From a virus (taxonomy: Duplodnaviria > Heunggongvirae > Uroviricota > Caudoviricetes), in IMG/VR virus record IMGVR_UViG_3300035396_000446, positions 35,006-99,005 of that record: a stretch of DNA of 64,000 nucleotides, one strand, 5' to 3'. Below are positions 1 to 59,536 of this stretch, in pieces (the first letter of the stretch is position 1; every line of letters begins with the position of its first letter). A program made the position numbers and the translations under genes. Below the pieces are notes generated by a model that did no database searches, was not told the origin of the DNA, and saw only the letters and a list, made by a program, of their open reading frames with translations.

Positions 1-344
1 GTAACAGTTTCTGTGATAAATCCACGGATAGATTTTGCAAGCTTTTTAACTTGGTCTTCATACTTTCCTTCGAAAAGTTGATTGACACTTTCTTTAAGTA
101 AGTCGATATTCTTATCATCTTTAACTTTCATCTCTTCCATGTTTTCAAAAGAAACATAGTCTGAGTCCACAGAATATGTAGCATAGTAAAATTTCTTATC
201 CACGCTCTCCATAATCAAACTTTTTGTTTCAGGGAAAGTAGCCAAAAGTTTTGCATTTTTAACCTTTGAGAAAGCCTCCTGTAAAATAAAAGTCTCTGAC
301 TGTTTTAAAATATTTATAAATTCATTATCAGAAATAGTTCGCAT
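1..344 (-). CDS. hypothetical protein, 5' portion only (ORF continues past window start)
   Basis: ATG at 344-342 with AGGAG 7 nt upstream. Frame stays open for 114 codons (MRTISDNEFINILKQSETF...) to position 1 with no stop. Sits directly downstream of the portal-like gene, so probably a head-module gene. Confidence 0.5.
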   Translation of the reverse strand, partial: MRTISDNEFINILKQSETFILQEAFSKVKNAKLLATFPETKSLIMESVDKKFYYATYSVDSDYVSFENMEEMKVKDDKNIDLLKESVNQLFEGKYEDQVKKLAKSIRGFITETV

Positions 345-361
345 CTGAAATCTCCTACATA

Positions 362-2338: not shown

Positions 2339-2376
2339 TTTTTATCCTAAAACAAAATATTCTGGTCTTCTAATAA

Positions 2377-4248: not shown

Positions 4249-4266
4249 ATTGCGTACCCACTAGGA

Positions 4267-4306
4267 AATTTTTTATAAAAAAGTAAGGGTTTTACCCCTT
4301 ACTTTT
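4267..4306 (-). terminator. rho-independent terminator downstream of the 87-aa gene
   Basis: Minus-strand RNA reads AAAAGUAAGGG-GUAAAA-CCCUUACUUUU followed by UUAUAAAAAAUU: a perfect 11-bp stem, 6-nt loop and a U-tract. Lies between the stop at 4313 and the terL start. Confidence 0.6.
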
Positions 4307-4312
4307 ACCCAA

Positions 4313-4576
4313 TTACAGGACTCTAGAAGCAGTCGCAGATGCGGTTACTGCATAAAATGCGATAACATCTGAGTCTACCATAAAAGCTGTACCTGCTTCT
4401 CGGCCTTGAGCTGCGATTCCAGAAGAAACTGCATCGTAGACATTGAGCGCAACAAAAGGTGTTACTTTTTGAGCAATAGCTTTTGCTGATTGGTCTCTTT
4501 GTCCGGTGATACCGTCTCCAGTTTCGTATGCTGCTCCGAGAGCGGGGCTTTTGGGATTAGAATAAGATCGTGCCAT
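4313..4576 (-). CDS. small Ala/Gly/Ser-rich hypothetical protein (87 aa), locally GC-rich
   Basis: ORF with a strong GGAGGAG RBS about 8 nt upstream of the ATG. Composition and GC are atypical for the window. Followed by a strong intrinsic terminator. Confidence 0.5.
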   Translation of the reverse strand: MARSYSNPKSPALGAAYETGDGITGQRDQSAKAIAQKVTPFVALNVYDAVSSGIAAQGREAGTAFMVDSDVIAFYAVTASATASRVL

Positions 4577-4662
4577 GGCAATTCTCCTCCATAAAATTAT
4601 TTCGCTTTTAGCGTAATATTACATATTATCTTTAATAAACTTATTTTTTTTGTTTTTTTTTC

Positions 4663-5076
4663 TTATAACGGTTTTTTAACAGCGTTTAAAACTTGCTCGG
4701 TTAAATAAGAGTCCGTCATCATTTCTTTTGTTATGACTTTAAAAATCCAACCACGGATAACACAAAACCTTTCTGCGGCTTCGAATTTCTTTAAATTCAT
4801 TCGTGTTTTTAATTGATTCTTAGGTTTAATTTCTATTAGTAAGTTCCCATTAATGAGTAAGTCAGGGTAATATCTTTTACTTTTTCCAAAAAGAACATAT
4901 GGTATTACAATACACTCGGCTTCCCATCTTTTTACAAGTGGGCAATTGTCTAGCCATTGATATACTTTTAATTCCCAGGAAGACTTAAACTTACATAGTT
5001 TAGATGCTTTGGGGCTTCTGTACACACCTTGGAGCCAATTATTTTTTTGTGTTACTTGGAGTACTTTTCCTTCCAT
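4663..5076 (-). CDS. PD-(D/E)XK-fold nuclease (possible free-standing homing endonuclease or restriction-like nuclease)
   Basis: 137 aa with the motif YYPDLLINGNLLIEIKPK (PD...(E)IK) characteristic of PD-(D/E)XK nucleases. Located next to the terminase, as free-standing endonucleases often are in T4-like phages. Confidence 0.5.
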   Translation of the reverse strand: MEGKVLQVTQKNNWLQGVYRSPKASKLCKFKSSWELKVYQWLDNCPLVKRWEAECIVIPYVLFGKSKRYYPDLLINGNLLIEIKPKNQLKTRMNLKKFEAAERFCVIRGWIFKVITKEMMTDSYLTEQVLNAVKKPL

Positions 5077-5078
5077 GA

Positions 5079-5519
5079 TTATTCTTGATTTTTCTTTATC
5101 TTATCCATTACCGAGTTTGCGGGAGTATCTTCATCAAAGATATCCAAACCAATAGAGGAGAAATCAGTGGACGTATTCTTAACAGGTGCGTTTTCTGCAA
5201 CAATCTTAGCTAGTTGTACTAATTTGTCAGAACTAGTCTGTATGGCCTTCTGAGCCTCTGTGAGAGCTGTAAACATAGCCGCTCCCTTCTTATCAGAAGT
5301 TCTAACTATGTTTTGAATATTTTGAAAGTTTAAAACGGCTCTCTTTCTATCTTCCATTAGAAGTTCATAAACTCTTTTAACAACATCATTAGACTCAAAG
5401 GTTTTCGGTAAGGAGAAGTCCCCGACAATATCTTCAAAACTCATATTAGCATCTATGCTGTGAAACTCCCCGTCATCGTCATCAATAAGAGCTGGTTTAA
5501 TCAAATCTGTTCTTCTCAT
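5079..5519 (-). CDS. hypothetical protein
   Basis: 146-aa ORF, co-directional and tightly packed; no recognisable motif. Confidence 0.4.
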   Translation of the reverse strand: MRRTDLIKPALIDDDDGEFHSIDANMSFEDIVGDFSLPKTFESNDVVKRVYELLMEDRKRAVLNFQNIQNIVRTSDKKGAAMFTALTEAQKAIQTSSDKLVQLAKIVAENAPVKNTSTDFSSIGLDIFDEDTPANSVMDKIKKNQE

Positions 5520-5530
5520 GTGGTGCTACC

Positions 5531-5998
5531 TTATAATTTTAAATGTTTATTACTTTTGAACTCGTTTATCGTTGGATGTATCTCTTGTATTTTCAATGCA
5601 AGTTTCTTTACTTTTTTATCTAAGGTAATATTTTCAGGCTTTAGAATATTATCACCATAAATAAAGCAGCTATAGTACTCTATGTTCTTATGTTCTTTTT
5701 TCGCCCCATCTACGTGAAAGGAGTAGCTTTTTTCTCTCCCATGCAGTACAACAGCAAACCATCCTAACTCTTGGATAACGCCTTCAACCTCAATTTTCTC
5801 TTTTGGAATAGATAAACCATATTTCGAGTGAATCCAATCATAATTGTTCTTTATATAATCTTCTAGAGAATCACCAATCTTAGCGTCTGTAAAAAGCTCT
5901 AGCCTATTATTTGCCCACATTTTTTTTACAATAGACTTATTTTCCTGAGAAACAGAAACCTTTTCAATATACTCATTTAATAACATAGAATCCCTCAT
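5531..5998 (-). CDS. hypothetical protein
   Basis: 155-aa ORF; stop overlaps the upstream gene start (ATGA-type junction); no motif recognised. Confidence 0.4.
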   Translation of the reverse strand: MRDSMLLNEYIEKVSVSQENKSIVKKMWANNRLELFTDAKIGDSLEDYIKNNYDWIHSKYGLSIPKEKIEVEGVIQELGWFAVVLHGREKSYSFHVDGAKKEHKNIEYYSCFIYGDNILKPENITLDKKVKKLALKIQEIHPTINEFKSNKHLKL

Positions 5999-6675
5999 AA
6001 AAGAGGATGTTTGCCATGTATATAATACTTATGGAACAAAACAGAACTATCCTCTATTTCTTTTAAAACTTTTCGAATATAAGAATGAGTTACACCAAAA
6101 CTTTTAGTATAATTAATAAATTCCTTTTTATTAAAACTATTAGCCTGAATTCCTATATACCTCTTAAGTAACTTTATTATTTTCAATTTTTTTGGAACAG
6201 AATGGAATAAGCAATACTCTAGATACTTGAAAAACTCAGGTATATCATGAGCATCCAGGCAAGACAGGATAACGTCCCAATCCGAAGTTTTTGCATGTTG
6301 CATATCCTGGATAGTGGTGGTCTCTGAGAAATAATTTCTTTTTTTATATTTACTTTCTTTTAAAGTTATGAATAATAGGTGCTTTTTTACTACATTTGAG
6401 AAGAACTTATGAGCAAGATTTGATTTGTGTTTCCATTTTATTGGGTCGAAACTTTCTATTGCTTTTAAACAGGCGCAAGCAGCCTCCCCTTGTAAATCCT
6501 CTAGTGCAGCGAATCTCCAAAACCGATATAAGTTTATAATAGCGTTTATAATAAGCTGAATATCTACCATTGCCAAATTTCTATACGTAATATCCCCTGT
6601 TATCTTATACTGAGCAAGAAGATTTTCTACCTTCCGACTATCGAAATAATTTTTACTTCTTACTTTTTCATCCAT
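5995..6675 (-). CDS. putative late-transcription sigma factor, T4 gp55-like (sigma-70 region 2 only)
   Basis: 226 aa. The segment NLAMVDIQLIINAIINLYRF...GEAACACLKAIESFDPIKWKHKSNLAHKFFSNVVKKHLLFITLKESK tracks T4 gp55 (GLAIMLIAEGLSKRF...[44 protein letters not shown]). Sits just upstream of the structural genes. Confidence 0.5.
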   Translation of the reverse strand: MDEKVRSKNYFDSRKVENLLAQYKITGDITYRNLAMVDIQLIINAIINLYRFWRFAALEDLQGEAACACLKAIESFDPIKWKHKSNLAHKFFSNVVKKHLLFITLKESKYKKRNYFSETTTIQDMQHAKTSDWDVILSCLDAHDIPEFFKYLEYCLFHSVPKKLKIIKLLKRYIGIQANSFNKKEFINYTKSFGVTHSYIRKVLKEIEDSSVLFHKYYIHGKHPLL

Positions 6676-6704
6676 GCGTTAATTCCTTATAGTATTAAAC
6701 TACG

Positions 6705-7172
6705 TTATGTGTGGCTAATAAAGAATGCCAAGGATTCCGATATTGTTTTGTTGCTGATATTATCATTAAGCTTATCTTCGCTATTCTCCGTATCTTCTAT
6801 ATTTTTCTCAAGTTCCTCAATGCTCCCATTTACACCTGGGTATGAGTATTTTATAAAATGTCTTTGCACTTTATTTTTAGCACCGGATAGATTATTAATT
6901 ATAGATAATTGAAATGGCTTACCTTTAACCTGAATTGTGAAGTTATTTATTTTTTTTAATAGCTCATGTGCTTTATCTTCTGTATCAATACCTAATTCTT
7001 TGATAATTTTAAAAATACCTACGACCTCTGCTCCAGACCTGAAATAGTTATCGATTAAATTATCTTTTTCATAATCTTTCGACTTTATCTCCTCTCCTAT
7101 ACTTACCGTTATCGTATATATTCTTTCTTGTTTTTCTTGTAACTGTTCTAGTAAACTTTTAAAAAATTTCAT
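6705..7172 (-). CDS. hypothetical protein
   Basis: 155-aa ORF, acidic C-terminal half; no motif. Confidence 0.4.
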   Translation of the reverse strand: MKFFKSLLEQLQEKQERIYTITVSIGEEIKSKDYEKDNLIDNYFRSGAEVVGIFKIIKELGIDTEDKAHELLKKINNFTIQVKGKPFQLSIINNLSGAKNKVQRHFIKYSYPGVNGSIEELEKNIEDTENSEDKLNDNISNKTISESLAFFISHT

Positions 7173-7175
7173 AAT

Positions 7176-7577
7176 TTAATCCTCTTCTGTCCAATTTGCG
7201 CAACAATTTTCTACGGGAAGCTCTTTAAAAGCTCCCTCACATGTACATTTTGTTTCATTAAGATACAGACAATTCTGACAACACCATTCTTCTCTTGGGT
7301 GATAAGTAACATCAAACAATTGGTCTATATCTTTCAAGACGGACAAATCCTGCCCGTCTTCTCTATTATACTTTAAAATAAACTGATTTTTCCCACGAGA
7401 AATACTTTTTATAGGGTATGGGAGATAAAAGTTTTCTATAAAATCATTAAGGTGTCTATAAAAAGAGTAAGTCTCATCTAAGAAATAATCTTGAAAAGCA
7501 CATATGAAAAAATACTGAGTGATGTTGTCTGCACTTACTACGTGCTTTATTTTAACACCTACTTGAAGAACTTTCAT
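7176..7577 (-). CDS. hypothetical Cys-rich protein
   Basis: 133 aa; C-terminal cluster CCQNCLYLNETKCTCEG...CCANW suggests a metal-binding module. Confidence 0.4.
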   Translation of the reverse strand: MKVLQVGVKIKHVVSADNITQYFFICAFQDYFLDETYSFYRHLNDFIENFYLPYPIKSISRGKNQFILKYNREDGQDLSVLKDIDQLFDVTYHPREEWCCQNCLYLNETKCTCEGAFKELPVENCCANWTEED

Positions 7578-7867
7578 TCTTGACCTGTTACCGTTTCAGA
7601 AAATTTATTATCTTCTGCTTTTATTTTGTCTATGAACTTCTTATAATCAGACAAAGTAGTTAGCATTCCATCTGGAATAACATCTCGACCATTAAAAATA
7701 TGATCCTCAACTATTGTCTCGAAATCTGACAAATCTAACTCATCGAAAAAAGATATTAAGTTATTATACCTATAAAAATCAGATTCAGTAAAGTTTACAA
7801 CTTTCCCCTGTAGTTTGAAAAAGTGAGTAAGACATACATATAGCTGGCTATCTGTATTTTTCTCCAT
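7574..7867 (-). CDS. hypothetical protein
   Basis: 97-aa ORF with overlapping start and stop junctions to both neighbours. Confidence 0.4.
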   Translation of the reverse strand: MEKNTDSQLYVCLTHFFKLQGKVVNFTESDFYRYNNLISFFDELDLSDFETIVEDHIFNGRDVIPDGMLTTLSDYKKFIDKIKAEDNKFSETVTGQE

Positions 7868-8901
7868 TATATATCCAATAATTCATCCGAATTTATATTT
7901 GATACTTTTTTAGATTTATTTTCTTTTTTTAGGCCTTTGATTTGGTCTTGTACCTCTTTTAGTCTTTGACCAAGTAAAGTATCGGGGAGCGGTAGTCCAT
8001 TTATTAAAATATAACAAGCATCTTGCCCATCCTCGCAGTCTGACTCTGCAACGATTTTAAAGTAAGGCACCCACATATTTAATTTCTCCAATACAGAGAT
8101 TGTTATAGGTTTTTTTGTTTTAAAAAGAACAATTGCTTTTTTACCCTTAGATAAATCGAAATCTATAGATAAGCTATCGGGACCATTCTTTAGACTTAGT
8201 TCAAATATATTTAGAAATCCATGGTATTGTTTGTCTGGATATACAATTCTTTTAAACTCTTCTTTGTCTAAAGATTTTAAACCATTTAACTTGGGATTAC
8301 CTCTGAAGCTATCGAAATCGAACATTTTAATGCAAGCATCTACAATCTTGCTATTTACATCATACCATGTGAAGCCACCACCTTTCCCAAGATGCTTCTG
8401 ATAATCATCATTATTCACTATAACAGCAGTTATTAAACCATTCTCAATGTAATCTGTATTTATTTTTTGTAACAAAGCCAATGCATTTGAGCACGACGGA
8501 TTGCCCTCTAGAGATAAAGGAAGAATCATTGTTGTTTTAACAGTAATGTTCATCTGCAATAAGATGTCTATAATGAAAGGTAACGATCCAGACCCTGTTC
8601 CACCGCCAAGACCCGCAAAAATATTAACTTCATCTACTTCTGTGTCATCCAATAGAACTTGTTTCAAAAAATCTTGAACCTTATCCCTTACCTCAGAGAA
8701 AATCTCAACTGTTTTTTTGGGATTCCTACCTGACCCTTCACCCTTTCCTACTACTAATTTAATAGCAGAGGGTTCGGTTATCTTATTAAGATCGTCCTTT
8801 GCAGTATTTAAAAGTATCAATTTATATTTTCTACGAGTTTTGTTAAAATATTGTACCGCGACGTTACAACCTGACTCACCTAATCCAATAATGGCTTCCA
8901 T
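7867..8901 (-). CDS. FtsZ/tubulin-superfamily GTPase (phage TubZ/PhuZ/FtsZ-like)
   Basis: 344 aa with the G-box IIGLGESGCNVAV, LLNTAKDDL (FtsZ NTD-like), VVGKGEGSGRNP (T3-like), the tubulin/FtsZ signature AGLGGGTGSGSLPFI (GGGTG[ST]G), then TVKTTMILPLSLEG and a VNNDD T7-like loop. RBS AAGGA upstream of the ATG. Confidence 0.8.
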   Translation of the reverse strand: MEAIIGLGESGCNVAVQYFNKTRRKYKLILLNTAKDDLNKITEPSAIKLVVGKGEGSGRNPKKTVEIFSEVRDKVQDFLKQVLLDDTEVDEVNIFAGLGGGTGSGSLPFIIDILLQMNITVKTTMILPLSLEGNPSCSNALALLQKINTDYIENGLITAVIVNNDDYQKHLGKGGGFTWYDVNSKIVDACIKMFDFDSFRGNPKLNGLKSLDKEEFKRIVYPDKQYHGFLNIFELSLKNGPDSLSIDFDLSKGKKAIVLFKTKKPITISVLEKLNMWVPYFKIVAESDCEDGQDACYILINGLPLPDTLLGQRLKEVQDQIKGLKKENKSKKVSNINSDELLDI

Positions 8902-8917
8902 ATATATTCCTTATCAA

Positions 8918-8941
8918 AAGACGCACTTTCTAGTGCGTCTT
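8918..8941. terminator. intercistronic stem-loop between the 1193-aa gene and the FtsZ-like gene
   Basis: 9-bp perfect stem AAGACGCAC/GTGCGTCTT with a 6-nt loop. T-runs follow on the plus side and a short U-run on the minus side. Possible attenuator or processing site. Confidence 0.35.
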
Positions 8942-8961
8942 CATCTTTTTTAATTACGATA

Positions 8962-11900
8962 TTAGTCGAATAAGTTTAAATAATCTAAAACATTGTCTGA
9001 TTTTTTTGATTCTACTAAGGATGCTTCAATATCCAGTATAACAGAGCTCAGTTGAACGTTATTGAGGTCTCTCTTTCTACTAGCGTCAAAAAGCTGTGAG
9101 ATTACCTTTTTGATAGACAAAAGGTCAGGAAAAACACTGGCATATAAGCTATTTATCGCTCGTAAATATGCCCTACAAAAATCCTCAAAAAATTGTTTAT
9201 TTGAAAAATTTAGATTTTTTGAGTTCATAGCTTTTTTACTTTTAAAAAAACTATCTAGCTTCTTTTTATTTAATCCAAAAGAATCTACGTCTGTTGCAAG
9301 TATTTCACGCACAGCGTCGCCCATTTGTATAACATAGGTTCCTTCCGAATTTTTAGATATTTGCGTTATACTAACTGTATCTAAAGCTTCATCCTCTAGT
9401 AATTTAGCAACCCTTAGAAAAAAACTACCGATCTTATTTTGTTTTTTATCTACTATTAGCTTATATAACTCCATTGTATCACTTGCATAAATAGATTGTA
9501 TAAAGCTAGATAGAGTCATATTTATCTGTGCAACACCCTCTCCTCCAGTTGCTTTTATTTTCTTTAAAAATGCATCACTAATTATTGTGCATACATTATT
9601 AGGAGACATGGATTTATTCTTATCATCGTATGCATTAGAAAATGGCTTTACATTTATAGAATCTAGAAAAGCTGCGAATACTTCTCTAGACACCTTACTT
9701 CCAGAAAATATCATATCCTTTATAGAGGAATTAGTAATCGTTTGACCTTTAGTATTTATAATTCTGTATTTATCCACAAACTTCATTATTGCATAGACTA
9801 AGGGAGATCTAGAATCCACATTGATATCTCTGGTGGAGATGTCATATTTTTTTATCTGCGAAGTAAAGTCTTTAGCTTTTTTTTGTAACGTTGTATCGTT
9901 TAAGTAACTAAGAAAAGTTTCATTTTTAGATATTGACTTTTTAGAAATATAATTTGCTCTCTGAAGACTCGGTTGAAGCTTTGACTGTTCTTCTACACTG
10001 CTATTGTATATATTCACAAATTCTGTAAACATTTTATTTAAGGTAGAGTAAGGAAGCCCATACATTATATAGAAAGAATAAGAAGCGAACCACTCTTCTA
10101 AACTTACAAGACTTATAGCATCCTTTGATAAAATGGAGCTATATTTTTGTGTATCTCCAATGATATCCCGAGCGCCATTTATAATACCTTTTATTTGTGC
10201 ATCTGTTAGTATCAAGTTTCGATGCTGTGAACTAGGTACCATGCCTTTTTGAGTTTTATATATAACCGGGACGGCTCCCACTGCCGCATCAGCAGTTAGA
10301 GGAAGGGGCATCTCTAGAAGGATTGCGTCGTCCTGAGATATAGAGAGGTCTTCTGAAAGAACATTATCCTTTATAACTTTTCTTATCTGTTTAAATAGAT
10401 TTTCTATATCCAATTCTTGATTCATGCTCTTTACTGTTTGGAAAGAATTACCACTTTCAGAAAGAAAGTTTCTTAGGACTCCCTCACAGTAATCAACATC
10501 TGACAGTAAAGTAGATTGAATTCTATTGTAAATCTTATTTACTCTGTCTCTCTGATACTCAGAGGAATTATCTAATTCTTCCGCATCATCTTCAGGTGTC
10601 AGTACATCTACTAGGTCTGAATCTGTTGTTATCATTGGATCTTTAATTTTTAAACAAGTAGACAATAGTACAGAATATGTATTACTAACGCGAGAATACT
10701 TATATAGACCATCTCCCTCTTTATTTTTAGTAATATAAGTGTCCAATAAAGACCTGAGCTTTTGAAAATACTTTTTAATATTTTCTTCTTTGAAAATAAA
10801 ATCCTCATCCTCTATTGCCATAATCCTAGATTTTTTTGCAGACTGCTCTTTAATTAACATCTCTACTGGTAGTAAAGAACCTAGGTGTGACATATAAGAC
10901 TCAAAGTATTGAGAAAGATCTGTTTTTTTCCTCTCTCCAATAAAGTCATTATAAAAATTTAAAACAGAGTTAATTTCTGCTACCGGGTTAGTTATTATAA
11001 GACCTGCTTCAACTTGCCCATCATTTTTATTGTCATTTATACTTCTATACTTATTAAAGTTATAGACATTCCCCCAACCACCCTTCGAAGTTCCATCATA
11101 GTAGAAAAATGAAGAATCTCTAATTTCTAATGGTAGAAAATAACTTCCTTCCGCAGTCTTTAATGTTTCAACCGTATCTATAGCATAAATAGCAGTGTAT
11201 GTTTTACCTTCATACGTAACCTTTGGAGGATTCCCAGCAACACCTAAATCACTATATTTTACCATTATAGCGCCAGCCTGCGTAAATCCATCACTAAGCT
11301 TTATCGAAGTATCAGTATATTTGTCATTTAAAACCATATTAGCATATTGCAGCTTTCCGTTATACTGAAGATGGTCTACCTGATTATTATCCCCATCTAT
11401 TATCCTACTTAGACCACTTTCACCCTTTTTTACTAACTTTGGCATATAAGAGTAATGAGGTAATTGATAATAGTGAAAATAGTTAATTATGTTGTCTATA
11501 TTATCAACAGAGATTTTATATGAACCATCTCTCCCTTGTATTTCTATAACGTCGCTGCCTTCAAACAGGCTGGTTAGATATTCTGCTGCTTCTTTTGGTT
11601 GTTTTATAACATCATCAGGATACAGCACATGATAAAGAGTTTCCGGAAGAACTTCCTCGTCCTTAGTATATGTAAGTTCCTTACCATTTTTTTTAATAAT
11701 ATTTAAGCTTTTTGATATTTTACCGCCTAATAGCCTTTTGTGCATAAAAGCATAGAATAATATCTCGTTTATTACTTGTGCAAAAACAAAAGCATTATAC
11801 TGAAGATCTACTTTATCTATATTTTTCTTTTCTTGTTCTGATATATTATTGAATATATCTACTATTCTTTGATCTCGTCCTATGACTATATTCTCTACTT

Positions 11901-12543
11901 CAGTGTCCTCTAATTGTTTTATAAAAGGATCTAAAGAATAGTTCAGTATATCTTGGAAATTTTTATGACCTATTATATTCCCTTCATAAAATTGATTAAA
12001 AAGTGTTGATATTTCCTCTCTATTTTGACTTCTAACTCCATATGACGCCCTCTGCTCTTTTGTTTTTATTACAAGAGGCAGACTAATATTTAAAATAGGG
12101 TTACCTTCCTCATCAAAGTCTGTTTCTTCAATAGCAACATCAGGAAGAGGTTTGTAGGAATGTATAAAGGGAAGAAGTATTACCAGTATTTTTTTCTTCG
12201 CTTCATCATTTAAAGTAGAGGAAAATTTAGGTTGAAGAACTTGATTAATCCATTCGAAAATACCATGCTCATTTTGTGGTGTGTGTTTCGCATTACTTAA
12301 TTCACTGATGCCTAGTAATTTTTTCACTATAAGAGCAAGGGACATAACATCACAAGGGGGTTGCCCATAAGACATGTAATATCTCTTAGCATCATCTCTC
12401 GCAGCCACACCCACTATGTTTTTTGGGTCGCTATATCTTGAGTCAGCACTCTTCGCCTCTTGTAGATCACATTTCTTTATAACTTCAGATGCAATGTCTA
12501 ATAAATAAGCCATATTATTTTTCCTTTTTCTTAGTCTTCCCAA
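8962..12543 (-). CDS. large hypothetical protein (1193 aa)
   Basis: Single uninterrupted 3.58-kb ORF on the gene strand immediately upstream of the FtsZ-like gene. No catalytic motif recognised; could be a virion or cytoskeleton-associated protein. Confidence 0.6.
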   Translation of the reverse strand: MGRLRKRKNNMAYLLDIASEVIKKCDLQEAKSADSRYSDPKNIVGVAARDDAKRYYMSYGQPPCDVMSLALIVKKLLGISELSNAKHTPQNEHGIFEWINQVLQPKFSSTLNDEAKKKILVILLPFIHSYKPLPDVAIEETDFDEEGNPILNISLPLVIKTKEQRASYGVRSQNREEISTLFNQFYEGNIIGHKNFQDILNYSLDPFIKQLEDTEVENIVIGRDQRIVDIFNNISEQEKKNIDKVDLQYNAFVFAQVINEILFYAFMHKRLLGGKISKSLNIIKKNGKELTYTKDEEVLPETLYHVLYPDDVIKQPKEAAEYLTSLFEGSDVIEIQGRDGSYKISVDNIDNIINYFHYYQLPHYSYMPKLVKKGESGLSRIIDGDNNQVDHLQYNGKLQYANMVLNDKYTDTSIKLSDGFTQAGAIMVKYSDLGVAGNPPKVTYEGKTYTAIYAIDTVETLKTAEGSYFLPLEIRDSSFFYYDGTSKGGWGNVYNFNKYRSINDNKNDGQVEAGLIITNPVAEINSVLNFYNDFIGERKKTDLSQYFESYMSHLGSLLPVEMLIKEQSAKKSRIMAIEDEDFIFKEENIKKYFQKLRSLLDTYITKNKEGDGLYKYSRVSNTYSVLLSTCLKIKDPMITTDSDLVDVLTPEDDAEELDNSSEYQRDRVNKIYNRIQSTLLSDVDYCEGVLRNFLSESGNSFQTVKSMNQELDIENLFKQIRKVIKDNVLSEDLSISQDDAILLEMPLPLTADAAVGAVPVIYKTQKGMVPSSQHRNLILTDAQIKGIINGARDIIGDTQKYSSILSKDAISLVSLEEWFASYSFYIMYGLPYSTLNKMFTEFVNIYNSSVEEQSKLQPSLQRANYISKKSISKNETFLSYLNDTTLQKKAKDFTSQIKKYDISTRDINVDSRSPLVYAIMKFVDKYRIINTKGQTITNSSIKDMIFSGSKVSREVFAAFLDSINVKPFSNAYDDKNKSMSPNNVCTIISDAFLKKIKATGGEGVAQINMTLSSFIQSIYASDTMELYKLIVDKKQNKIGSFFLRVAKLLEDEALDTVSITQISKNSEGTYVIQMGDAVREILATDVDSFGLNKKKLDSFFKSKKAMNSKNLNFSNKQFFEDFCRAYLRAINSLYASVFPDLLSIKKVISQLFDASRKRDLNNVQLSSVILDIEASLVESKKSDNVLDYLNLFD

Positions 12544-12895
12544 GCAAATAAAAAGACCACTCTTTATCTTCTAAACTTTTTACATTGTGTGGCATGTCCG
12601 TCTCATACCTTAGAAAATTTAAAAAATCTTCTTTTGTATATAACGAAAATAGATGCATTCTACTAGCCTCTACTTCATAATACGGAACCTCTATAACTTG
12701 CTCGCTGTCCTTATGCTCATAAAATGCTTTACACTTTATCACATCTTTTTTATCGAATCTTATATCAAATAATTTAAAAAACTTTTTAATTTCAGAACTT
12801 TTTATAGTTCCCTCTTTGTCTTGAACTTTAATAGAAAAAGGAGATGGCTCTTCTACATTCTTAAATCGTAGCTTTAAAAATTCATTTAAAATCAT
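12515..12895 (-). CDS. hypothetical protein
   Basis: 126-aa ORF; 29-nt overlap with the downstream large gene. Confidence 0.4.
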   Translation of the reverse strand: MILNEFLKLRFKNVEEPSPFSIKVQDKEGTIKSSEIKKFFKLFDIRFDKKDVIKCKAFYEHKDSEQVIEVPYYEVEASRMHLFSLYTKEDFLNFLRYETDMPHNVKSLEDKEWSFYLLGKTKKKEK

Positions 12896-13257
12896 ACTTC
12901 TTCTTTGTGTGGTAAATAACTTCTTATATCTGTATTTGAGCTACTTAAAAATCGAACCCATCTTACATTTCCATTCTCAATGTACCCAATATTACTGTCT
13001 TGAATAATAAAAGAACCTTCTTTAATATCCCTAAACTTTTCATCCATTATTTTTACTAATTTAGTGAAATTAGTAAAACTATAGAACTTCTTATCTAATA
13101 ACCTATTTTTCAGATAATCATCCATAAACCTGTAAAACTTTCTCCGAATAACTTCCTCATCTTGGTTATTCTCGGCAATTAATTTCTTGTAAAGTTGTTT
13201 CTTAAAATTCAAAAACGGTTCTGTCTTTATGATTATTTCATAGGAAGTAGCTATCAA
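12892..13257 (-). CDS. hypothetical protein
   Basis: 121-aa ORF, ATGA overlap with neighbour. Confidence 0.4.
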   Translation of the reverse strand: MIATSYEIIIKTEPFLNFKKQLYKKLIAENNQDEEVIRRKFYRFMDDYLKNRLLDKKFYSFTNFTKLVKIMDEKFRDIKEGSFIIQDSNIGYIENGNVRWVRFLSSSNTDIRSYLPHKEEV

Positions 13258-13260
13258 TTT

Positions 13261-13467
13261 TTAATCCTTATCTTGAACACTTTCCCCTTTGTCTAATTCT
13301 TTGCGAAAGTCTTCTTTGTATGTATATTCTAACGCTTCGTATACACTATCCCGATAAGAGCTTATCTGTCTGTTTCTTTCTTTTACAAACGCTTCACCTT
13401 CTTTATTGCTAAGAAAGTTCCAAGGATTAGTTTTTACGTCTTCTATAAATACGCTGTCTTTTATCAT
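13261..13467 (-). CDS. hypothetical small protein
   Basis: 68-aa ORF in the operon-like array. Confidence 0.35.
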   Translation of the reverse strand: MIKDSVFIEDVKTNPWNFLSNKEGEAFVKERNRQISSYRDSVYEALEYTYKEDFRKELDKGESVQDKD

Positions 13468-13492
13468 TTTTTAGTTCTCCAATTTATATTTG

Positions 13493-14497
13493 TTAAATAA
13501 ATCTGTAATTATCGTCCTGAATAGGCTCTAATCCAAGTTTATCAAACATGATGTCCTCTACTGTGCTATCTATCTCTTCTAGGTACTCTGATTCCACTGT
13601 TTTTTTTATACTTTTTTCCTGGTCTCGCATAAACTTAGGTTTATTTCCAACAAACTCAGGGATATGTGATTTCTTATTAGGGTCCGTATTTTTAATGAAG
13701 TTATCTATACCTAGTAAAATATACTTAATATCTTCTTCCGAAAAATTATAGTCCCTTCTCAACTCCTCAGACAACGTATCTGGGGAATAAGTGGGAGATT
13801 TTGAGAAACGTATAATATTATTGAAAGTATCCATCACTTTATCATGAATCTTTTTAAAATTTGCATCTTTGTTAGAGAGTTCAGTAAAATGTTTTGGAGA
13901 TTTCATGGTGTCGATCTCATTGTCTGCTACATAATTTTTTACAATAGATTTAAAATAATCAATAACAGAAACAGACCTTGCAAAAACATCTTTTAATAGC
14001 TCTAAGTTTTCAACCTCGGCAGGTGTGTTGTTTTCACTTGACGGTATATTATTTTGAATTTCCTCATCTGGTGCGTCATCTTCAAATGGGTCTTTTCCTG
14101 TCTTAGACTCTATGGCATCCGCTTCCTTTTCTATCTTCTGTTCTTCTTGATCATTTGATGCTTCAAGACTTGCTAGTTTCTCTATGGTTGCTGATAGTTC
14201 TTCTTGTTTCTCTTCAACCGGTTTATTATCTATGGAGTTCGGATTAGAAGATTCTTTTAAAAAGTTTTGTTCAAACTCTTTCTTAAAATTAGAAACATAT
14301 TCATCGAATAAATTTAAAAGAACGCCTTTTACTTGCCCTGTCTTATGTGTTTTTATATAGGCTTCTGACCAATATCTAAAAAGAGATAGACTTCTAATAA
14401 TAGAGTAGGCCGCTGATACTTCGGGGGATGTGTCTTCTTTTAAGATATTGGAAGATTTTAAATATGTACTACATAGTATATCATCTAAATTTGCCAT
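13493..14497 (-). CDS. hypothetical acidic protein
   Basis: 334 aa, strongly acidic central region (EEQKIEKEADAIESK...DPFEDDAPDEE). Confidence 0.45.
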   Translation of the reverse strand: MANLDDILCSTYLKSSNILKEDTSPEVSAAYSIIRSLSLFRYWSEAYIKTHKTGQVKGVLLNLFDEYVSNFKKEFEQNFLKESSNPNSIDNKPVEEKQEELSATIEKLASLEASNDQEEQKIEKEADAIESKTGKDPFEDDAPDEEIQNNIPSSENNTPAEVENLELLKDVFARSVSVIDYFKSIVKNYVADNEIDTMKSPKHFTELSNKDANFKKIHDKVMDTFNNIIRFSKSPTYSPDTLSEELRRDYNFSEEDIKYILLGIDNFIKNTDPNKKSHIPEFVGNKPKFMRDQEKSIKKTVESEYLEEIDSTVEDIMFDKLGLEPIQDDNYRFI

Positions 14498-14826
14498 TAT
14501 TTTACATCCTCGATTTGTTTTCTAATAGAATCAAATAAAATATTAAGCTCATTATATAAGTTTTTAGCACTCTCAGTAGATAATACAAAAGATTTCTCTC
14601 CTAAATTTAAGTTCTCTAGATACTTCTGGATAATCTGATCAATACATTCATTTATAACTTTTTTTAATTTAACTTTATATCCGATGTCAGAGAATAGACC
14701 CTCTTGCAGAGTATCTTCCATTGTCATGCCAACTGAGTATGACTCTAGTAAAAATTTCTCTTCTGATATTAAACCATTTTTAAAATCAGATACTAGTTTA
14801 TTCTTCTTGTATATAGTTTCTAGCAT
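14497..14826 (-). CDS. hypothetical protein
   Basis: 109-aa ORF; its start overlaps the stop of the upstream gene. Confidence 0.4.
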   Translation of the reverse strand: MLETIYKKNKLVSDFKNGLISEEKFLLESYSVGMTMEDTLQEGLFSDIGYKVKLKKVINECIDQIIQKYLENLNLGEKSFVLSTESAKNLYNELNILFDSIRKQIEDVK

Positions 14827-15682
14827 CGTTTATATATTCCCCCTGAACACGTGGTTTCCGTGATGATTTATACTGCTTAGTAGCGTCAGTAGTAGAGTCA
14901 GATACTGTTTCTGTCGGAGTCTCAGGTGGCTGACCGACCGGTGGTTGGTCTACCTGTGTCGTAGTCGCCGGTGTCTGAGTTGTCAAAGGAGCACCTTTAC
15001 CACTGAGTATTGTGTCCAACTCTCTTTGTTGTGTTAGATATAACTGTTTATTTCTTGCGAAGTCGTCTTTTATTTGAGCGTTTTGTTCTGGGTCTATTTG
15101 ACTCTGTATTTGGTTGTTAGGAGATAATTTTGTTCCGTATCTCGCAAAATAAATAACTTTGCCTTTCTCTGGATCGTTTGTTTTGCTTATCTTTGCAAAA
15201 AAAGCATATAATTTAGTAAGTCTAGGATCTCCACTTTTAATAGCCTGTACCGTAGGGGCGAACGATTGCTGACCTATCTTAGACTTCATAGGTCCCGCTT
15301 CTAATTTTTGTAAAATTGCATTTCTTGATTTCTGATCATCTCTTAGTTTCAGCTTTTCAGAAACAAGTTTTAAGTAATTCTGGGAACTTGACTCATATGA
15401 TTTATTAATAGCCTGGTTATATTCGGACTCTATTTTTGATATGGCTTGGGTTTGTCTTTTGACTACATCATTCTTCATAGCGTCCGTTGCACCAGTCATA
15501 ACTCTATTTCCAAGGTCCCCTATCCTATCTAGAAGACCCTCATTAATAAGGTCCTGTTCCGACACCCCTATCGCTATACATTCTTTTAAAATTTCAGTTC
15601 GGGATAGTTTATTTGCTCTTATTTTTTTGAATAGTATAGTTTTCTTTTGTTCTTTCTCTAGTAATTCTTCTATATATGACAT
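14798..15682 (-). CDS. hypothetical protein with C-terminal Thr/Pro/Gln-rich linker
   Basis: 294 aa. The GC-rich stretch 14860-14960 encodes TQTPATTTQVDQPPVGQPPETPTETVSDSTTD. Confidence 0.45.
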   Translation of the reverse strand: MSYIEELLEKEQKKTILFKKIRANKLSRTEILKECIAIGVSEQDLINEGLLDRIGDLGNRVMTGATDAMKNDVVKRQTQAISKIESEYNQAINKSYESSSQNYLKLVSEKLKLRDDQKSRNAILQKLEAGPMKSKIGQQSFAPTVQAIKSGDPRLTKLYAFFAKISKTNDPEKGKVIYFARYGTKLSPNNQIQSQIDPEQNAQIKDDFARNKQLYLTQQRELDTILSGKGAPLTTQTPATTTQVDQPPVGQPPETPTETVSDSTTDATKQYKSSRKPRVQGEYINDARNYIQEE

Positions 15683-15749
15683 ATTGAAATCCTTTTATTG
15701 GCATAGAATATAAGAATTATCTTTATTTTATTTATTTTTTTCGCATAAA

Positions 15750-16988
15750 TTAAGAATTGTAGAAGATATTTGTGACTTTAACGGGAGCCACATCTATCTT
15801 TAACTGACGATAAGCTTCGAGAGCGTGAAATCCGGATAATGCTTGAAACTTTATCTTCCTTGACCTAATTCCAAACTCCATAGCTAATATATCCGACTGT
15901 TGCCATAAAACAGGCTTTTCAAAAGTTTCTTTTTTCTCTATTTTATAAACATACTCTTTAATTTTTTTATGGTCATATTTTGTAAAGTTTCCAAGTTTAA
16001 ACTTCTCATTGTAGTTGTTGATTTCTTCAATAGGCACCTCTGCATCCAATAGAAACTTATCTTTACCATTTTTAAATGGTAAAATTTTGATTAAGTTCTC
16101 ATACTCTTCTTTTTCTTTTGTTGGAGCAAATAATGTTAAGTTTTCCTTGAAATCGAATATCAGGTCTTTATTGATTGGCACATCATTTGGAGTATAGAAG
16201 CAAATTGTATTCTTATTCAAAATCCCTGCCAAGCAGAATAACAAGCTAATATTACAAATAACATGTTTAGAGTTTCTAACTAATTCTATAAGAGTGAGAA
16301 CATTCATATCTTCACTTATAAGGCGAGTAGCCCCGTCGATTATACTTGTGTTTATCTCTATTATTTTATACTTTTTTAAGTCATCTTTACTGTATTTATT
16401 AATAACTTCATCAAATATAAGTTTATCTATTGTTTTTCGTTCATTTCTACCTTGCAGTTGCACCAGAATATACTCGCCAACTATGTCATTGTTCTGTAAG
16501 AATCTATTTACATTATCTTTTTTAGAGGAAGTGTCTGGTAGATAGTAAACAGGTTTTTCATGCTGAATTTGAAGTCTTGTTAAAAAGAAAAAGTAATTAT
16601 TAAACCTGTAGTCATTTTTAACGACGGTGTCTTTATACTGGATCAAAGGTACTTTATCATATTTAATAAATTTTCTAATATATGACACTTGTTGCTGTAT
16701 TGCTCCTACATTTAATGCTATTACATCTTTCTCTTTTACCCATACGTTAGATAAAAGATGATATTTTTCTATGATGTCAGTGCAAGCATCTAAGTACTCA
16801 TTCATATAAGAGGTTGTATTAAACGCAGGTTGATAAGGGCTAAGAACTGCTAAATGAATTATTTTTTCTGGATTTCTTTCTTTATATACCTTAAGGCAAG
16901 AGATGAATACAATTAAATCATCTAATCCATATGGAAAAATATAGAGCTCTTTATTAGACCTGTTATCAATTTTATTTAATTGTACCAT
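15750..16988 (-). CDS. putative glycosyltransferase, divergent GT9-like (GT-B fold)
   Basis: 412 aa. N-terminus ELYIFPYGLDDLIVFISCLK resembles the GT9 LSxLGD N-terminal motif. C-terminal HVICNISLLFCLAGILNKNTICFYTPND resembles the GT9 DTGxxHLAAAxxxPxVxLFGPTD region. Adjacent to a clear GT9 enzyme. Confidence 0.4.
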   Translation of the reverse strand: MVQLNKIDNRSNKELYIFPYGLDDLIVFISCLKVYKERNPEKIIHLAVLSPYQPAFNTTSYMNEYLDACTDIIEKYHLLSNVWVKEKDVIALNVGAIQQQVSYIRKFIKYDKVPLIQYKDTVVKNDYRFNNYFFFLTRLQIQHEKPVYYLPDTSSKKDNVNRFLQNNDIVGEYILVQLQGRNERKTIDKLIFDEVINKYSKDDLKKYKIIEINTSIIDGATRLISEDMNVLTLIELVRNSKHVICNISLLFCLAGILNKNTICFYTPNDVPINKDLIFDFKENLTLFAPTKEKEEYENLIKILPFKNGKDKFLLDAEVPIEEINNYNEKFKLGNFTKYDHKKIKEYVYKIEKKETFEKPVLWQQSDILAMEFGIRSRKIKFQALSGFHALEAYRQLKIDVAPVKVTNIFYNS

Positions 16989-24537: not shown

Positions 24538-25407
24538 TTAAATATCAAATGTTTGTCCGACTTCTAGAAATCCTCGGAATCCGTCATCTTTTGCTTTTGT
24601 TTTCCAATCGCAAGGTTTCCCAAAGAAATCTTTATCATCAAGAACATAATCTTGATAATGACTTAACCACATTTTATTTTTAATTTCTAAAGGTAGCACC
24701 TCGGCATTTGCTTCTGGATACCCCGCTAATTCTGTGTAATTTGCATGTACCCCTGATTTGAAGGGTAGACACTCACAATCTTGAATAATAATATCAGCCT
24801 TAGAGTAAAACACTCTCACTTGTTTCGGGGAACAATGTTGGGAGTCCGTTGTAAAGTAAATAGATTGATGACCTTGCTTACTCACAATAAGGCCAAATGT
24901 ATCACTAATTTTAGATCCTGTCATTATGTGAACCTGTTGGATAAGTTCAAAGTTCCAACCCTGCCATATAAATGACTTATCTACGGGCTTTGGCTCAAAG
25001 TAAGTTTCAATTGTAGCGTCAAATCCCTCCATGGATTCTAAACCACCCCTTAATGTGTTTTTCCAAAGACTTTTAATTAATTCCTTCTGCGCATATAATT
25101 TAGGAGCATAGGGTTTCATCTTACCAATGTTTTCTAGCTGTGTAAAATCATTCCATCTTACAGGTCTATTCATCCAGTCATACCTATCAAAGGCGAAGTT
25201 CTCTAGAGATCCGCAATGATCGTTATGCTGATGTGAGATATATACACTATCTATATCTTTAAAAGATAACCCAGCATTTGTTAATGCCTCGGGGACTAGC
25301 CTCCCACAATCAATTAGCATTCGTTTGCCGTCCTGCTCTAGCACAAAGCTCTGATTAAAATTTCTTTTTGAGAATGCATTACCACATCCAATTATTGTTA
25401 TACGCAT
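24538..25407 (-). CDS. metallo-beta-lactamase-fold hydrolase (RNase Z/PhnP-like)
   Basis: 289 aa with MRITIIGCGNAF, LIDCG and ISHQHNDHCGSL (the HxHxDH zinc motif). Confidence 0.7.
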   Translation of the reverse strand: MRITIIGCGNAFSKRNFNQSFVLEQDGKRMLIDCGRLVPEALTNAGLSFKDIDSVYISHQHNDHCGSLENFAFDRYDWMNRPVRWNDFTQLENIGKMKPYAPKLYAQKELIKSLWKNTLRGGLESMEGFDATIETYFEPKPVDKSFIWQGWNFELIQQVHIMTGSKISDTFGLIVSKQGHQSIYFTTDSQHCSPKQVRVFYSKADIIIQDCECLPFKSGVHANYTELAGYPEANAEVLPLEIKNKMWLSHYQDYVLDDKDFFGKPCDWKTKAKDDGFRGFLEVGQTFDI

Positions 25408-25420
25408 ATTATTTTTCCTT

Positions 25421-56065: not shown

Positions 56066-56094
56066 ATTTTACCATGATATATGATTTTTGTCAA
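56066..56094 (-). promoter_or_regulatory. sigma70-type promoter TTGACA-N17-TAAAAT (TGg extended -10)
   Basis: Minus strand: TTGACA (plus 56089-56094), 17-nt spacer ending CATGG, TAAAAT (plus 56066-56071). Overlaps the 3' end of the nucleotidyltransferase gene and marks the end of the five-gene operon. Confidence 0.5.
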
Positions 56095-57026: not shown

Positions 57027-57036
57027 TATTATATCC

Positions 57037-59512: not shown

Positions 59513-59536
59513 CTGGATAGGTGCATACCTTAATTG

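What the first reader, a model, noticed from the sequence alone, without database searches (positions are those of the whole stretch)
7867..12543. FtsZ/tubulin-superfamily GTPase next to a 1193-aa protein in the late region
The 344-aa protein has the complete FtsZ/tubulin motif set, including the GGGTGSG signature and an NTD-like motif, so the phage encodes its own cytoskeletal GTPase. Phage tubulins (PhuZ, TubZ) position DNA or a phage nucleus, or segregate prophage plasmids. This one is shorter than PhuZ and more FtsZ-like. It lies directly downstream of an uncharacterised 1193-aa protein, separated by a hairpin, and upstream of the late sigma factor and packaging genes. The large neighbour could be a partner (adaptor, shell or centring factor). 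The module may indicate spatial organisation of replication or assembly in this phage.
Basis: partly seen in the sequence, partly recalled or inferred. Interest (0 to 1): 0.7.

Follow-up and report, generated by a model that had tools for sequence, protein, structure and literature searches.

The report
TubZ-like tubulin in T4-like phage
An uncultured T4-like phage encodes an intact tubulin-family GTPase from a rare, undescribed clade closest in fold to plasmid and phage TubZ, not to FtsZ or PhuZ; the 1183-aa gene beside it keeps its position in relatives, but nothing shows it is a partner.

Summary
Window 7867-8901 (-) encodes a 344-aa tubulin/FtsZ-superfamily GTPase (Pfam PF00091, 56 bits against a cut-off of 33) with all nucleotide-binding loops and the T7 catalytic loop intact. 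The neighbouring ORF is real, but it more likely starts at the ATG at 12513, giving 1183 aa.

The genomes that carry the family look like large lytic phages, several of them T4-like. I found no chimallin, TubR, centromere repeats or lysogeny genes.

A large ORF sits directly upstream of the tubulin in all three close relatives. These three proteins share no detectable sequence except a short C-terminal tail that resembles the tubulin's own tail. The hairpin is real but is not conserved in the relatives.

Best reading: a cytomotive phage filament used during lytic infection. Its cargo is unknown.

The parts
7867..8901 (-). Gene for a 344-aa TubZ-like tubulin/FtsZ-superfamily GTPase
7870..7932 (-). 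C-terminal tail of the tubulin, about residues 324-344: a basic linker (KKENKSKKVSNINSD) followed by the terminal peptide ELLDI
   Evidence: In the model the region after the long C-terminal helix (residues 307-331) has low confidence, with pLDDT below 50 for 333-344. The family-wide tail consensus is a basic run followed by (S/K)-L-(L/F)-x-(I/L/F) at the extreme C-terminus. Terminal peptides of this kind also occur in the RepX-like, FtsZ, CetZ, PhuZ and c-st TubZ sequences aligned.
8917..8942 (-). Intergenic stem-loop GAAGACGCACU-AGAA-AGUGCGUCUUU, followed by UGAUAAGGAA (ribosome-binding site) and the tubulin ATG
   Evidence: Sequence. The fold is -16.9 kcal/mol, z = -3.6. The scan flags it as terminator-like only on the + strand; on the coding strand the U-run is just 4 nt. 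It is not conserved: the relatives have 19-29 nt A-rich spacers with no hairpin.
8962..12513 (-). Large ORF of unknown function, 1183 aa from the ATG at 12513. The 1193-aa version from the TTG at 12543 is less likely.
   Evidence: ORF list; start context; public gene call of 1183 aa. It has no Pfam, PHROG or NCBIfam hit and no homologue other than itself among 5.8 billion protein clusters. A 1185-aa ORF in L001 and an ORF of at least 446 aa in L009 occupy the same position, without detectable similarity. The single-sequence AF2 model is unusable, with pLDDT 33.
8965..8991 (-). C-terminal peptide of the large protein (VLDYLNLFD), preceded by KK. It resembles the tubulin tail.
   Evidence: The three otherwise unalignable large proteins end in ...KKSDNVLDYLNLFD...EEQKDSLLNYIERL and ...KKKEKEGSLLSFLS. 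A loose version of the motif occurs in the tail of only 5 of 89 minus-strand ORFs in the window, and two of those five are the tubulin and the large protein. The motif was defined after seeing the data, so this is a lead and not a result.
7574..7867 (-). Gene for a 97-aa acidic protein whose ATG overlaps the tubulin stop codon by 1 nt (TAATG). A candidate co-expressed partner.
   Evidence: The overlap is read. The same 1-nt overlap and a homologous 100-aa protein occur in L001, with a conserved core DLxDxETxxEDxxFxGxDxIPD. It has no family hit.

Best explanation
The 344-aa protein is a functional, highly divergent member of the TubZ/PhuZ group of tubulins carried by mobile genetic elements. 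It represents an undescribed clade found in large, apparently lytic phages, several of them T4-like.

Inferred mechanism: it binds GTP through the T1-T6 loops. It polymerises head-to-tail, so that the T7 loop (D212/E215) of one subunit completes the GTPase site of the next. This produces dynamic filaments that treadmill or grow and shrink. A long C-terminal helix, followed by a basic linker and a terminal ELLDI peptide, mediates either contacts between subunits (as in PhuZ) or docking of an adaptor or cargo (as the TubZ tail binds TubR).

No centromere, TubR gene, nucleus-shell gene or lysogeny gene was found. The most likely role is therefore spatial organisation during lytic infection: positioning replicating phage DNA, or bringing proheads and DNA together for packaging.

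The upstream 1183-aa protein and the translationally coupled 97-aa protein are candidate partners only.

Shown here: the fold, the motif integrity, the clade placement and the gene order. Inferred: polymerisation, the use of the tail, and the cellular role.
For: Family and fold:
- Pfam PF00091 above threshold.
- AF2 model at pLDDT 88.6.
- Full-length profile match to RepX/TubZ at 2e-38.
- Foldseek TM 0.77 to TubZ.
- The model has a 25-residue C-terminal helix (307-331) after the last strand, followed by a low-confidence tail.

Catalytic integrity:
- The T1-T7 motifs are conserved. D212, N164 and N183 are invariant in 26 sequences that share only 21-50% identity, which indicates purifying selection on GTP binding and hydrolysis.

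Clade placement:
- NJ bootstrap is 100% for the three closest sequences, 94% for the 17-representative clade, and 100% for separation from FtsZ.

Phage context:
- Window and L002: T4-type portal, gp21-like protease, TerL, gp4-like head-completion gene, sigma-like gene.
- L016: T4 gp2-like, RecA/UvsX-like and DnaB genes.
- L004 and L011: TerL and portal within two to four genes of the tubulin.

Absences:
- No chimallin, TubR or TubY by tblastn in the window.
- No tandem or iterated repeats near the gene.
- No integrase, repressor or Par proteins among the scanned ORFs.
Against: - There are no experimental data. Polymerisation and GTPase activity are inferred from conservation alone.
- Only 64 kb of the 190.9-kb contig was examined. 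Chimallin, partition genes or lysogeny genes could lie elsewhere on it.
- TubR-type adaptors diverge too quickly for a tblastn negative to exclude one.
- Placement beside PhuZ and c-st TubZ inside the TubZ supergroup is weakly supported (62-70% bootstrap on a distance tree).
- Linkage to packaging genes is not universal across the family.
- The role in lytic infection is an argument by elimination.
Confidence: 0.55

Rival explanations
1. Type III (TubZRC-like) partition system. The tubulin would segregate the phage genome as a low-copy plasmid prophage or during pseudolysogeny. An unrecognised DNA-binding adaptor and a centromere would be encoded nearby or elsewhere on the contig.
For: - The closest solved structures and sequences are plasmid and prophage TubZ.
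- The tail architecture (basic linker plus terminal peptide) is like that of RepX-like TubZ.
- Published work assigns a segregation role to TubZ of phage c-st (cited in PMC7824862).
Against: - There is no small wHTH gene upstream; the upstream gene encodes 1183 aa.
- c-st TubR and TubY find nothing in the window.
- No iterated repeats flank the gene.
- The scanned ORFs include no integrase, repressor or ParB.
- The genome backbone is T4-like with a gp55-like sigma candidate, which is typical of virulent phages.
- tblastn finds no relative in 72,556 plasmids or in 185k reference genomes.
Confidence: 0.12
2. Interference with the host cell. The tubulin or its tail would act on the host division machinery to block cell division during infection, for example by co-polymerising with or capping host FtsZ, or by competing for proteins that bind the FtsZ tail.
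For: The N-terminal GTPase domain still matches FtsZ (TIGR00065 at 5e-14; PDB FtsZ at 1e-10). The terminal hydrophobic and acidic peptide is reminiscent of the FtsZ C-terminal peptide. From general knowledge, phages are known to target FtsZ.
Against: - It is structurally nearer to TubZ and CetZ than to FtsZ.
- It scores 52 bits against a 295-bit cut-off for the FtsZ equivalog model.
- It lacks the Pfam FtsZ_C domain PF12327 that true FtsZ hits carry.
- At 17-21% identity to FtsZ over the structural alignments, co-assembly is unlikely.
- The family forms its own old clade rather than tracking host FtsZ.
Confidence: 0.1
3. The large neighbour has nothing to do with the tubulin. It would be a fast-evolving phage protein that is merely syntenic, such as a length-constrained helical ruler or internal protein, or a host-interaction or anti-defence protein. 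Under this reading the 'module' is gene order only.
For: - All flanking genes are 28-50% identical between the window and L001. The large ORFs are unalignable, with a global alignment z of 1.5 and no correlation of hydropathy profiles.
- More distant tubulin-bearing phages have different upstream genes: a PDDEXK nuclease, a 618-aa protein plus a 65-aa membrane protein, and small ORFs.
- The hairpin, a possible partial terminator, separates the two genes in the window.
Against: - A large ORF directly abuts the tubulin start in all three members of the subclade, 19-60 nt away.
- The lengths are nearly identical (1183 and 1185 aa).
- The only shared feature is a C-terminal tail that resembles the tubulin's own tail.
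- In the L004/L011 clade, the nearby 1042- and 1062-aa proteins also end in SLFNDLK and ELFKSLS.
Confidence: 0.5
4. A degenerate or non-polymerising GTPase that keeps the fold but has lost cytomotive function.
For: It is very divergent, at no more than about 25% identity to any solved tubulin-family protein.
Against: All nucleotide-binding loops and the T7 acidic residues are conserved across a family that is only 21-50% identical. The model is confident for the whole two-domain fold.
Confidence: 0.05

Closest known systems
TubZ of type III plasmid/prophage partition systems (B. cereus/anthracis pXO1 RepX, PDB 4ei7; B. thuringiensis pBtoxis TubZ, 2xka/3m8k; Clostridium phage c-st TubZ, 3v3t/4xcq)
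   Different: - Identity is only 15-25%.
- It lacks the extra Pfam domains PF21493 and PF22453 that the database records for RepX-like hits.
- There is no upstream TubR-like gene, no tubC-like repeats and no TubY.
- It is carried by an apparently virulent T4-like phage rather than a plasmid or plasmid prophage.
- It forms a separate clade with 92-94% bootstrap.
PhuZ, the tubulin of nucleus-forming Chimalliviridae (201phi2-1, phiKZ, Goslar)
   Same: It is a phage-encoded tubulin of similar size with a C-terminal helix and tail. In the NJ tree it falls in the same weakly supported supergroup. From the literature (PMC12908238, PMC13282480), PhuZ is used during lytic infection to position DNA and traffic capsids, and that is the functional analogy proposed here.
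   Different: - BLASTP against phiKZ PhuZ gives E 5.7, and PHROG 4733 gives only 1e-3.
- The window contains no chimallin.
- The backbone is T4-like, with a T4-type portal and a sigma-like gene, unlike chimalliviruses, which use their own multisubunit RNA polymerases.
FtsZ (bacterial/archaeal cell-division protein) and archaeal CetZ
   Different: - It fails the FtsZ equivalog model at 52 against 295 bits.
- It has neither PF12327 (FtsZ_C) nor PF21011, the domain recorded for CetZ-named hits.
- It is separated from FtsZ with 100% bootstrap and from CetZ with 70%.
Uncharacterised 'FtsZ' or 'cell division' proteins of uncultured phages in BFVD (A0A6J5RW92, A0A8S5UFG9)
   Same: These are the best viral structural matches, at TM 0.79 and 0.73. 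They show that other TubZ-like tubulins exist in uncultured tailed phages.
   Different: Identity is only 16-19%, and they are longer (452 and 387 aa). Their function is unstudied and I did not examine their genomic context.

Membership tests
Tubulin/FtsZ superfamily | Two-domain tubulin fold with the GGGTG(S/T)G signature (T4) and the T1-T6 nucleotide-binding loops | tested here: met
Tubulin/FtsZ superfamily | T7 'synergy' loop with acidic residues that activate GTP hydrolysis in the polymer | tested here: met
   SLDKEEF aligns with FtsZ NxDFAD and TubZ FDxSEF. D212 is invariant, and E215 is E or D in most of the 26 sequences.
FtsZ | Scores above the curated FtsZ equivalog threshold and carries the FtsZ C-terminal domain | tested here: not met
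   TIGR00065 at 52.4 bits against a cut-off of 295.2, covering only residues 4-167. There is no PF12327 hit. The tree excludes it from FtsZ at 100% bootstrap.
TubZ (type III partition, TubZRC) | TubZ-type fold: a tubulin core, a long C-terminal helix running back along the body, and a flexible tail | tested here: met
   The best structural matches are TubZ. The model has a helix at 307-331 and a disordered tail at 333-344. The profile aligns to RepX residues 17-385.
TubZ (type III partition, TubZRC) | An adjacent gene for the DNA-binding adaptor TubR (about 80-110 aa, wHTH), normally directly upstream | tested here: not met
   The upstream gene encodes 1183 aa. tblastn with c-st TubR gives E of 0.27 or worse in the window. 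The small flanking proteins have no HTH or other family hits. TubR sequences diverge fast, so a cryptic adaptor is not excluded.
TubZ (type III partition, TubZRC) | A centromere (tubC) made of iterated repeats next to the operon | tested here: not met
   There are no tandem or multi-copy direct repeats within 4000-16000 beyond chance-level pairs. TRF finds nothing relevant there.
TubZ (type III partition, TubZRC) | Carried by a low-copy plasmid or plasmid prophage | tested here: inconclusive
   The scanned ORFs of the 64-kb window show a T4-like virulent-type backbone with no lysogeny or partition genes. About 127 kb of the contig was not examined.
PhuZ (Chimalliviridae tubulin) | Sequence or profile membership in the PhuZ family | tested here: not met
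PhuZ (Chimalliviridae tubulin) | Co-occurrence with the nuclear-shell protein chimallin and the chimallivirus core genome | tested here: not met
   phiKZ chimallin gives E 1.3 against the window. The T4-type portal, gp21-like protease and sigma-like gene indicate a different lineage. This is limited to the window plus about 2 kb of flank.
CetZ | The CetZ-specific C-terminal domain (PF21011, as recorded for CetZ-named hits) and archaeal origin | tested here: not met
   There is no PF21011 hit. The CetZ sequences form a separate clade. The context is a tailed phage.

The most novel reading that the evidence does not exclude
T4-like phages that form no nucleus may have a cytoskeleton of their own. 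In this reading a TubZ-like filament works with a giant partner protein of about 1,200 aa that keeps its length but diverges extremely fast. The partner would dock on the filament through a C-terminal peptide that mimics the tubulin's own tail. Together they would organise the replication and packaging factory, or move proheads or DNA, during lytic infection. That would be a third functional class of phage tubulin system beside TubZRC partition and the PhuZ spindle with its nucleus.
Probability: 0.15. Interest if true: 0.8.

Novelty: new variant of a known kind. Interest (0 to 1): 0.5.

Why it matters
Phage tubulins are currently understood through two models. TubZ works with TubR and a centromere to segregate plasmid prophages. 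PhuZ centres and rotates the chimallin nucleus of jumbo phages. The papers I retrieved, including a 2026 review of jumbo phages, discuss phage tubulin almost only in these two settings; phage G's FtsZ/CetZ-like GTPase is also on record.

This clade is different. It has an intact catalytic apparatus. It sits in large T4-like genomes. None of the known partners was found, and it has no relative in cultured phages or plasmids. If it polymerises during lytic infection, cytoskeleton-based organisation would not be restricted to nucleus-forming phages, and the question would become what cargo a tubulin moves in a T4-like infection.

The practical limit is that every member is metagenomic. Testing would need gene synthesis and heterologous expression.

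Tried and rejected
Searches for close relatives that found nothing:
- megablast of 7000-13000 and tblastn of the tubulin against 50,697 phage records;
- tblastn of the more distant family members P0016 and P0017 against phages;
- tblastn of the tubulin against 72,556 plasmids;
- IMG/VR scans with A1, P0016 and P0017;
- a GTDB genome scan with A1;
- the wider alignments A2 and A3, which were too divergent for pattern scans.

Attempts to find cultured relatives of the phage through flanking genes (the sigma-like gene and the 121-aa protein) gave no tblastn hit.

Attempts to characterise the large protein all failed:
- Pfam, PHROG and NCBIfam gave no hit.
- The 5.8-billion-cluster search returned only the protein itself.
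- BLASTP against the two syntenic large ORFs found nothing.
- Global and local alignment against shuffles gave z of at most 2.8, which is not convincing.
- Hydropathy and charge profiles showed no cross-correlation peak at zero lag.
- The single-sequence AF2 model had pLDDT 33 and was not taken to fold search.
- Pfam and PHROG scans of the syntenic large proteins in relatives gave only sub-threshold noise.

Other negatives:
- The T4 late-promoter motif TATAAATA is not enriched (13 found, 14.6 expected) and is absent upstream of the tubulin.
- The sigma-like protein has no match among solved structures, so its identification stays weak.
- I considered a tape-measure-like 'ruler' reading for the length-conserved large protein and set it aside as unsupported. 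It has no PHROG hit and does not lie in a tail-gene context.
Full report
**1. What is in the sequence**

Nearly all genes in this 64-kb, ~32% GC window run on the minus strand. The finding's coordinates hold two ORFs.

- ORF 7867-8901 (-) encodes 344 aa.
- ORF 8962-12543 (-) reads as 1193 aa from a TTG. An ATG at 12513 has an AGGAA ribosome-binding site, lies immediately after the stop of the upstream gene, and is the start used in the public gene call. That gives 1183 aa.

The 60-nt spacer between them contains an 11-bp stem with a 4-nt loop at 8917-8942 (-16.9 kcal/mol, z = -3.6). The hairpin is followed by UUUUG, a ribosome-binding site and the tubulin ATG.

The window matches a 190,870-bp metagenomic contig (ENA ERZ27248460). 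That contig carries a T4-type portal, TerL, a gp21-like prohead protease, a gp4-like head-completion gene and a weakly supported gp55-like sigma gene. So this is a large tailed phage with a T4-like morphogenesis module.

**2. The 344-aa protein is an intact tubulin-superfamily GTPase**

- Pfam PF00091 scores 56.4 bits against a cut-off of 33.
- The motifs are all present: T1 GLGESGCN, T2 NTAKDD, T3 GSGRNP, T4 GLGGGTGSG, T5 LEGNP, T6 NND, H7 N183 and T7 SLDKEEF.
- G8, G11, N32, G56, G100, N164, N183, D212 and G228 are invariant across 26 family members that share only 21-50% identity with it.
- An AF2 model built on that alignment is confident (pLDDT 88.6, pTM 0.89). It shows the two-domain fold, then a 25-residue C-terminal helix (307-331), then a disordered tail.

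The T1 and T4 loops are intact, and the protein is not nested inside host FtsZ.

**3. Which tubulin it is**

Every comparison puts TubZ first and FtsZ or PhuZ lower.

| Comparison | TubZ | CetZ | FtsZ | PhuZ |
|---|---|---|---|---|
| Single sequence vs PDB (E) | RepX 7e-12; c-st 9e-5 | 3e-4 | 1e-10 | not in the 60 rows listed |
| Family profile vs PDB (E) | RepX 2e-38, full length | 1e-32 | 7e-29 | not in the 60 rows listed |
| Foldseek TM (by query length) | 0.77 (B. cereus), 0.72-0.75 (B. thuringiensis), 0.70 (c-st) | 0.70 | 0.61-0.65 | not in the 50 rows listed |

Other results agree.

- The FtsZ equivalog model scores 52 bits against a cut-off of 295.
- BLASTP against phiKZ PhuZ gives E 5.7.
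- A bootstrapped neighbour-joining tree of 49 sequences groups the window protein with its two close homologues (100%). They sit inside a clade of 17 representatives (94%) with a sister group (92%). The placement next to PhuZ and c-st TubZ (62%) and inside a wider TubZ-like supergroup (70%) is weak. FtsZ is cleanly excluded (100%).
- The protein is 344 aa and phiKZ PhuZ is 327 aa, so 'shorter than PhuZ' is wrong.

**4. How common it is**

The family is rare and uncultured.

- Among 5.8 billion protein clusters there are two close homologues, at 50% and 47% identity.
- An exhaustive profile search of 1.84 billion representatives gives 12 hits below 1e-30 and about 25 full-length matches of 340-385 aa.
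- Nothing is found in 50,697 phage records, 72,556 plasmids, IMG/VR or 185k reference genomes.
- The nearest viral models in BFVD are two unstudied 'FtsZ' or 'cell division' proteins of uncultured phages, at TM 0.73-0.79 and 16-19% identity.
- The papers retrieved here treat phage tubulins almost only as PhuZ of chimalliviruses or TubZ of plasmid prophages, plus phage G's FtsZ/CetZ-like GTPase. I found no description of this clade.

**5. Genomic context across the family**

Where contigs are long enough, the hosts of this gene are large phages.

- L001: split DnaE, clamp loader, ClpP, S21, T4 portal.
- L016, 128 kb: RecA/UvsX-like, DnaB, T4 gp2-like.
- L004 and L011: helicase, PDDEXK nuclease, tubulin, a 520-559-aa unknown, TerL, a 1042-1062-aa unknown, portal.

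In the window, tblastn with chimallin, c-st TubR and c-st TubY finds nothing. There are no centromere-like repeats near the gene. The scanned ORFs include no integrase, repressor or partition protein. The defining accessories of both known phage tubulin systems are therefore not found. The caveats are that two-thirds of the contig was not examined and that TubR-type proteins are hard to detect by sequence.

**6. The large neighbour**

The block around the tubulin is collinear between the window and L001. Every flanking gene is homologous:

- 68/112 aa;
- 121/120 aa at 46% identity;
- 126/129 aa at 28%;
- the tubulin at 50%;
- 97/100 aa;
- 133/129 aa at 40%;
- the sigma-like gene at 45%;
- further genes beyond these.

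The exception is the large ORF. It is 1183 aa in the window and 1185 aa in L001, yet the two are unalignable (BLASTP E of 1.4 or worse; global z 1.5; no hydropathy correlation). The third relative (L009) also has an ORF of at least 446 aa that ends 19 nt before its tubulin, again with no similarity.

The large protein has no family hit, no homologue and no usable structure prediction. Positional linkage is conserved within this subclade, but homology cannot be shown.

One feature is shared. All three large proteins end in a short peptide after a charged stretch: KKSDNVLDYLNLFD, EEQKDSLLNYIERL and KKKEKEGSLLSFLS. These resemble the tubulins' own tails (SDELLDI, ADELLDL, SEELLDL) and the family tail consensus (S/K)L(L/F)x(I/L).

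- A loose form of this motif occurs in 5 of 89 ORF tails in the window.
- The 1042- and 1062-aa proteins near the tubulin in L004 and L011 end in SLFNDLK and ELFKSLS.
- Neighbours in L016 and L017 show nothing similar.

Because I defined the motif after seeing the data, I treat it as a lead only.

The hairpin is absent from both relatives, whose spacers are 19-29 nt and A-rich. It is a local feature of this genome. It may be a partial terminator or an element that stabilises the upstream mRNA.

A better conserved neighbour is the downstream 97-aa acidic protein. Its ATG overlaps the tubulin stop by one base in the window, in L001, and positionally in L008.

**7. Most likely mechanism**

*Shown:* a TubZ-type fold, intact GTP-binding and T7 residues under purifying selection, a C-terminal helix with a basic linker and a conserved terminal peptide, and residence in large phages that look lytic and T4-like.

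*Inferred:* GTP-dependent head-to-tail polymerisation into dynamic filaments. The tail would serve either subunit contacts, as in PhuZ, or adaptor docking, as in TubZ-TubR. The role would be spatial organisation of phage DNA or proheads during lytic infection. I give this 0.55 overall. The identity is near certain; the cellular role is roughly even odds.

*Rivals:*

- cryptic TubZRC-type partition or pseudolysogeny (0.12);
- interference with host FtsZ (0.10);
- a non-polymerising relic (0.05);
- independently of these, that the large neighbour is functionally unrelated (0.5).

**8. Verdict**

The finding is real, and its core claim is correct: the phage encodes its own cytoskeletal GTPase. 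Its classification needs correcting. The protein is TubZ-like, not FtsZ-like, and it is not shorter than PhuZ. The proposed partnership with the large neighbour remains an open hypothesis, supported only by gene order and a short tail motif.

It is a new variant of a known kind: an undescribed clade of phage tubulin in a genomic setting that matches neither the TubZRC model nor the PhuZ-nucleus model.

Noticed in passing
window 63620-64000 (runs off the window end), minus strand: A tandem repeat of 60 nt with 6.3 or more copies at 91% identity. It encodes a 20-aa repeat, GGxLxLxSLTSIPEGFNPTV, in an open minus-strand frame. It looks like a leucine-rich-repeat-type protein whose N-terminus lies beyond the window.
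   Followed up: partly
window 28793-30013 (-): A 406-aa ORF with a very strong match to a PHROG transposase family (phrog_506, E 1e-121). This suggests an insertion-sequence-type element inside the phage genome.
   Followed up: no
window 30439-32049 (-): A 536-aa ORF that combines thymidylate-synthase matches at the C-terminus (residues 417-534) with HNH-endonuclease matches in the middle (residues 198-374). It may be a homing-endonuclease or intein-type insertion, or a fusion.
   Followed up: no
window 7176-7577 (-) and L001 11513-11902: A conserved protein of 133 and 129 aa (40% identity) two genes downstream of the tubulin. Its C-terminus is rich in cysteine (CCQNC...C.C...CC). It has no family hit and may bind metal.
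   Followed up: no
L001 (Logan SRR23618951 contig), around 1-5635 and 11335-11532: The 50%-identity relative encodes a DnaE-type polymerase split over several ORFs (PHP, DNA_pol3_alpha, HHH_6 and finger domains), a clamp-loader subunit, ClpP and ribosomal protein S21. This is an unusual replication module for a phage with T4-type head genes.
   Followed up: no
L004 6023-16783 and L011 8727-19878: A second clade of the tubulin family keeps a fixed gene order: PDDEXK nuclease, tubulin, a 520-559-aa unknown, TerL, a 1042-1062-aa unknown, portal. The tubulin therefore sits inside the packaging module in these phages.
   Followed up: partly
L016 9794-9991: In a 128-kb T4-like contig, a 65-aa, strongly hydrophobic (probably membrane) protein lies immediately upstream of the family tubulin. 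An anti-Pycsar Apyc1-like gene and a Band_7 gene lie downstream.
   Followed up: no
window 24538-26347 (-) and 56091-63150 (-): A cluster of RNA and nucleotide-repair-type genes: an ADP-ribosylglycohydrolase, a metal-dependent hydrolase, a nucleotidyltransferase and an RNA ligase. They may counter host tRNA- or ADP-ribosylation-based defences.
   Followed up: no
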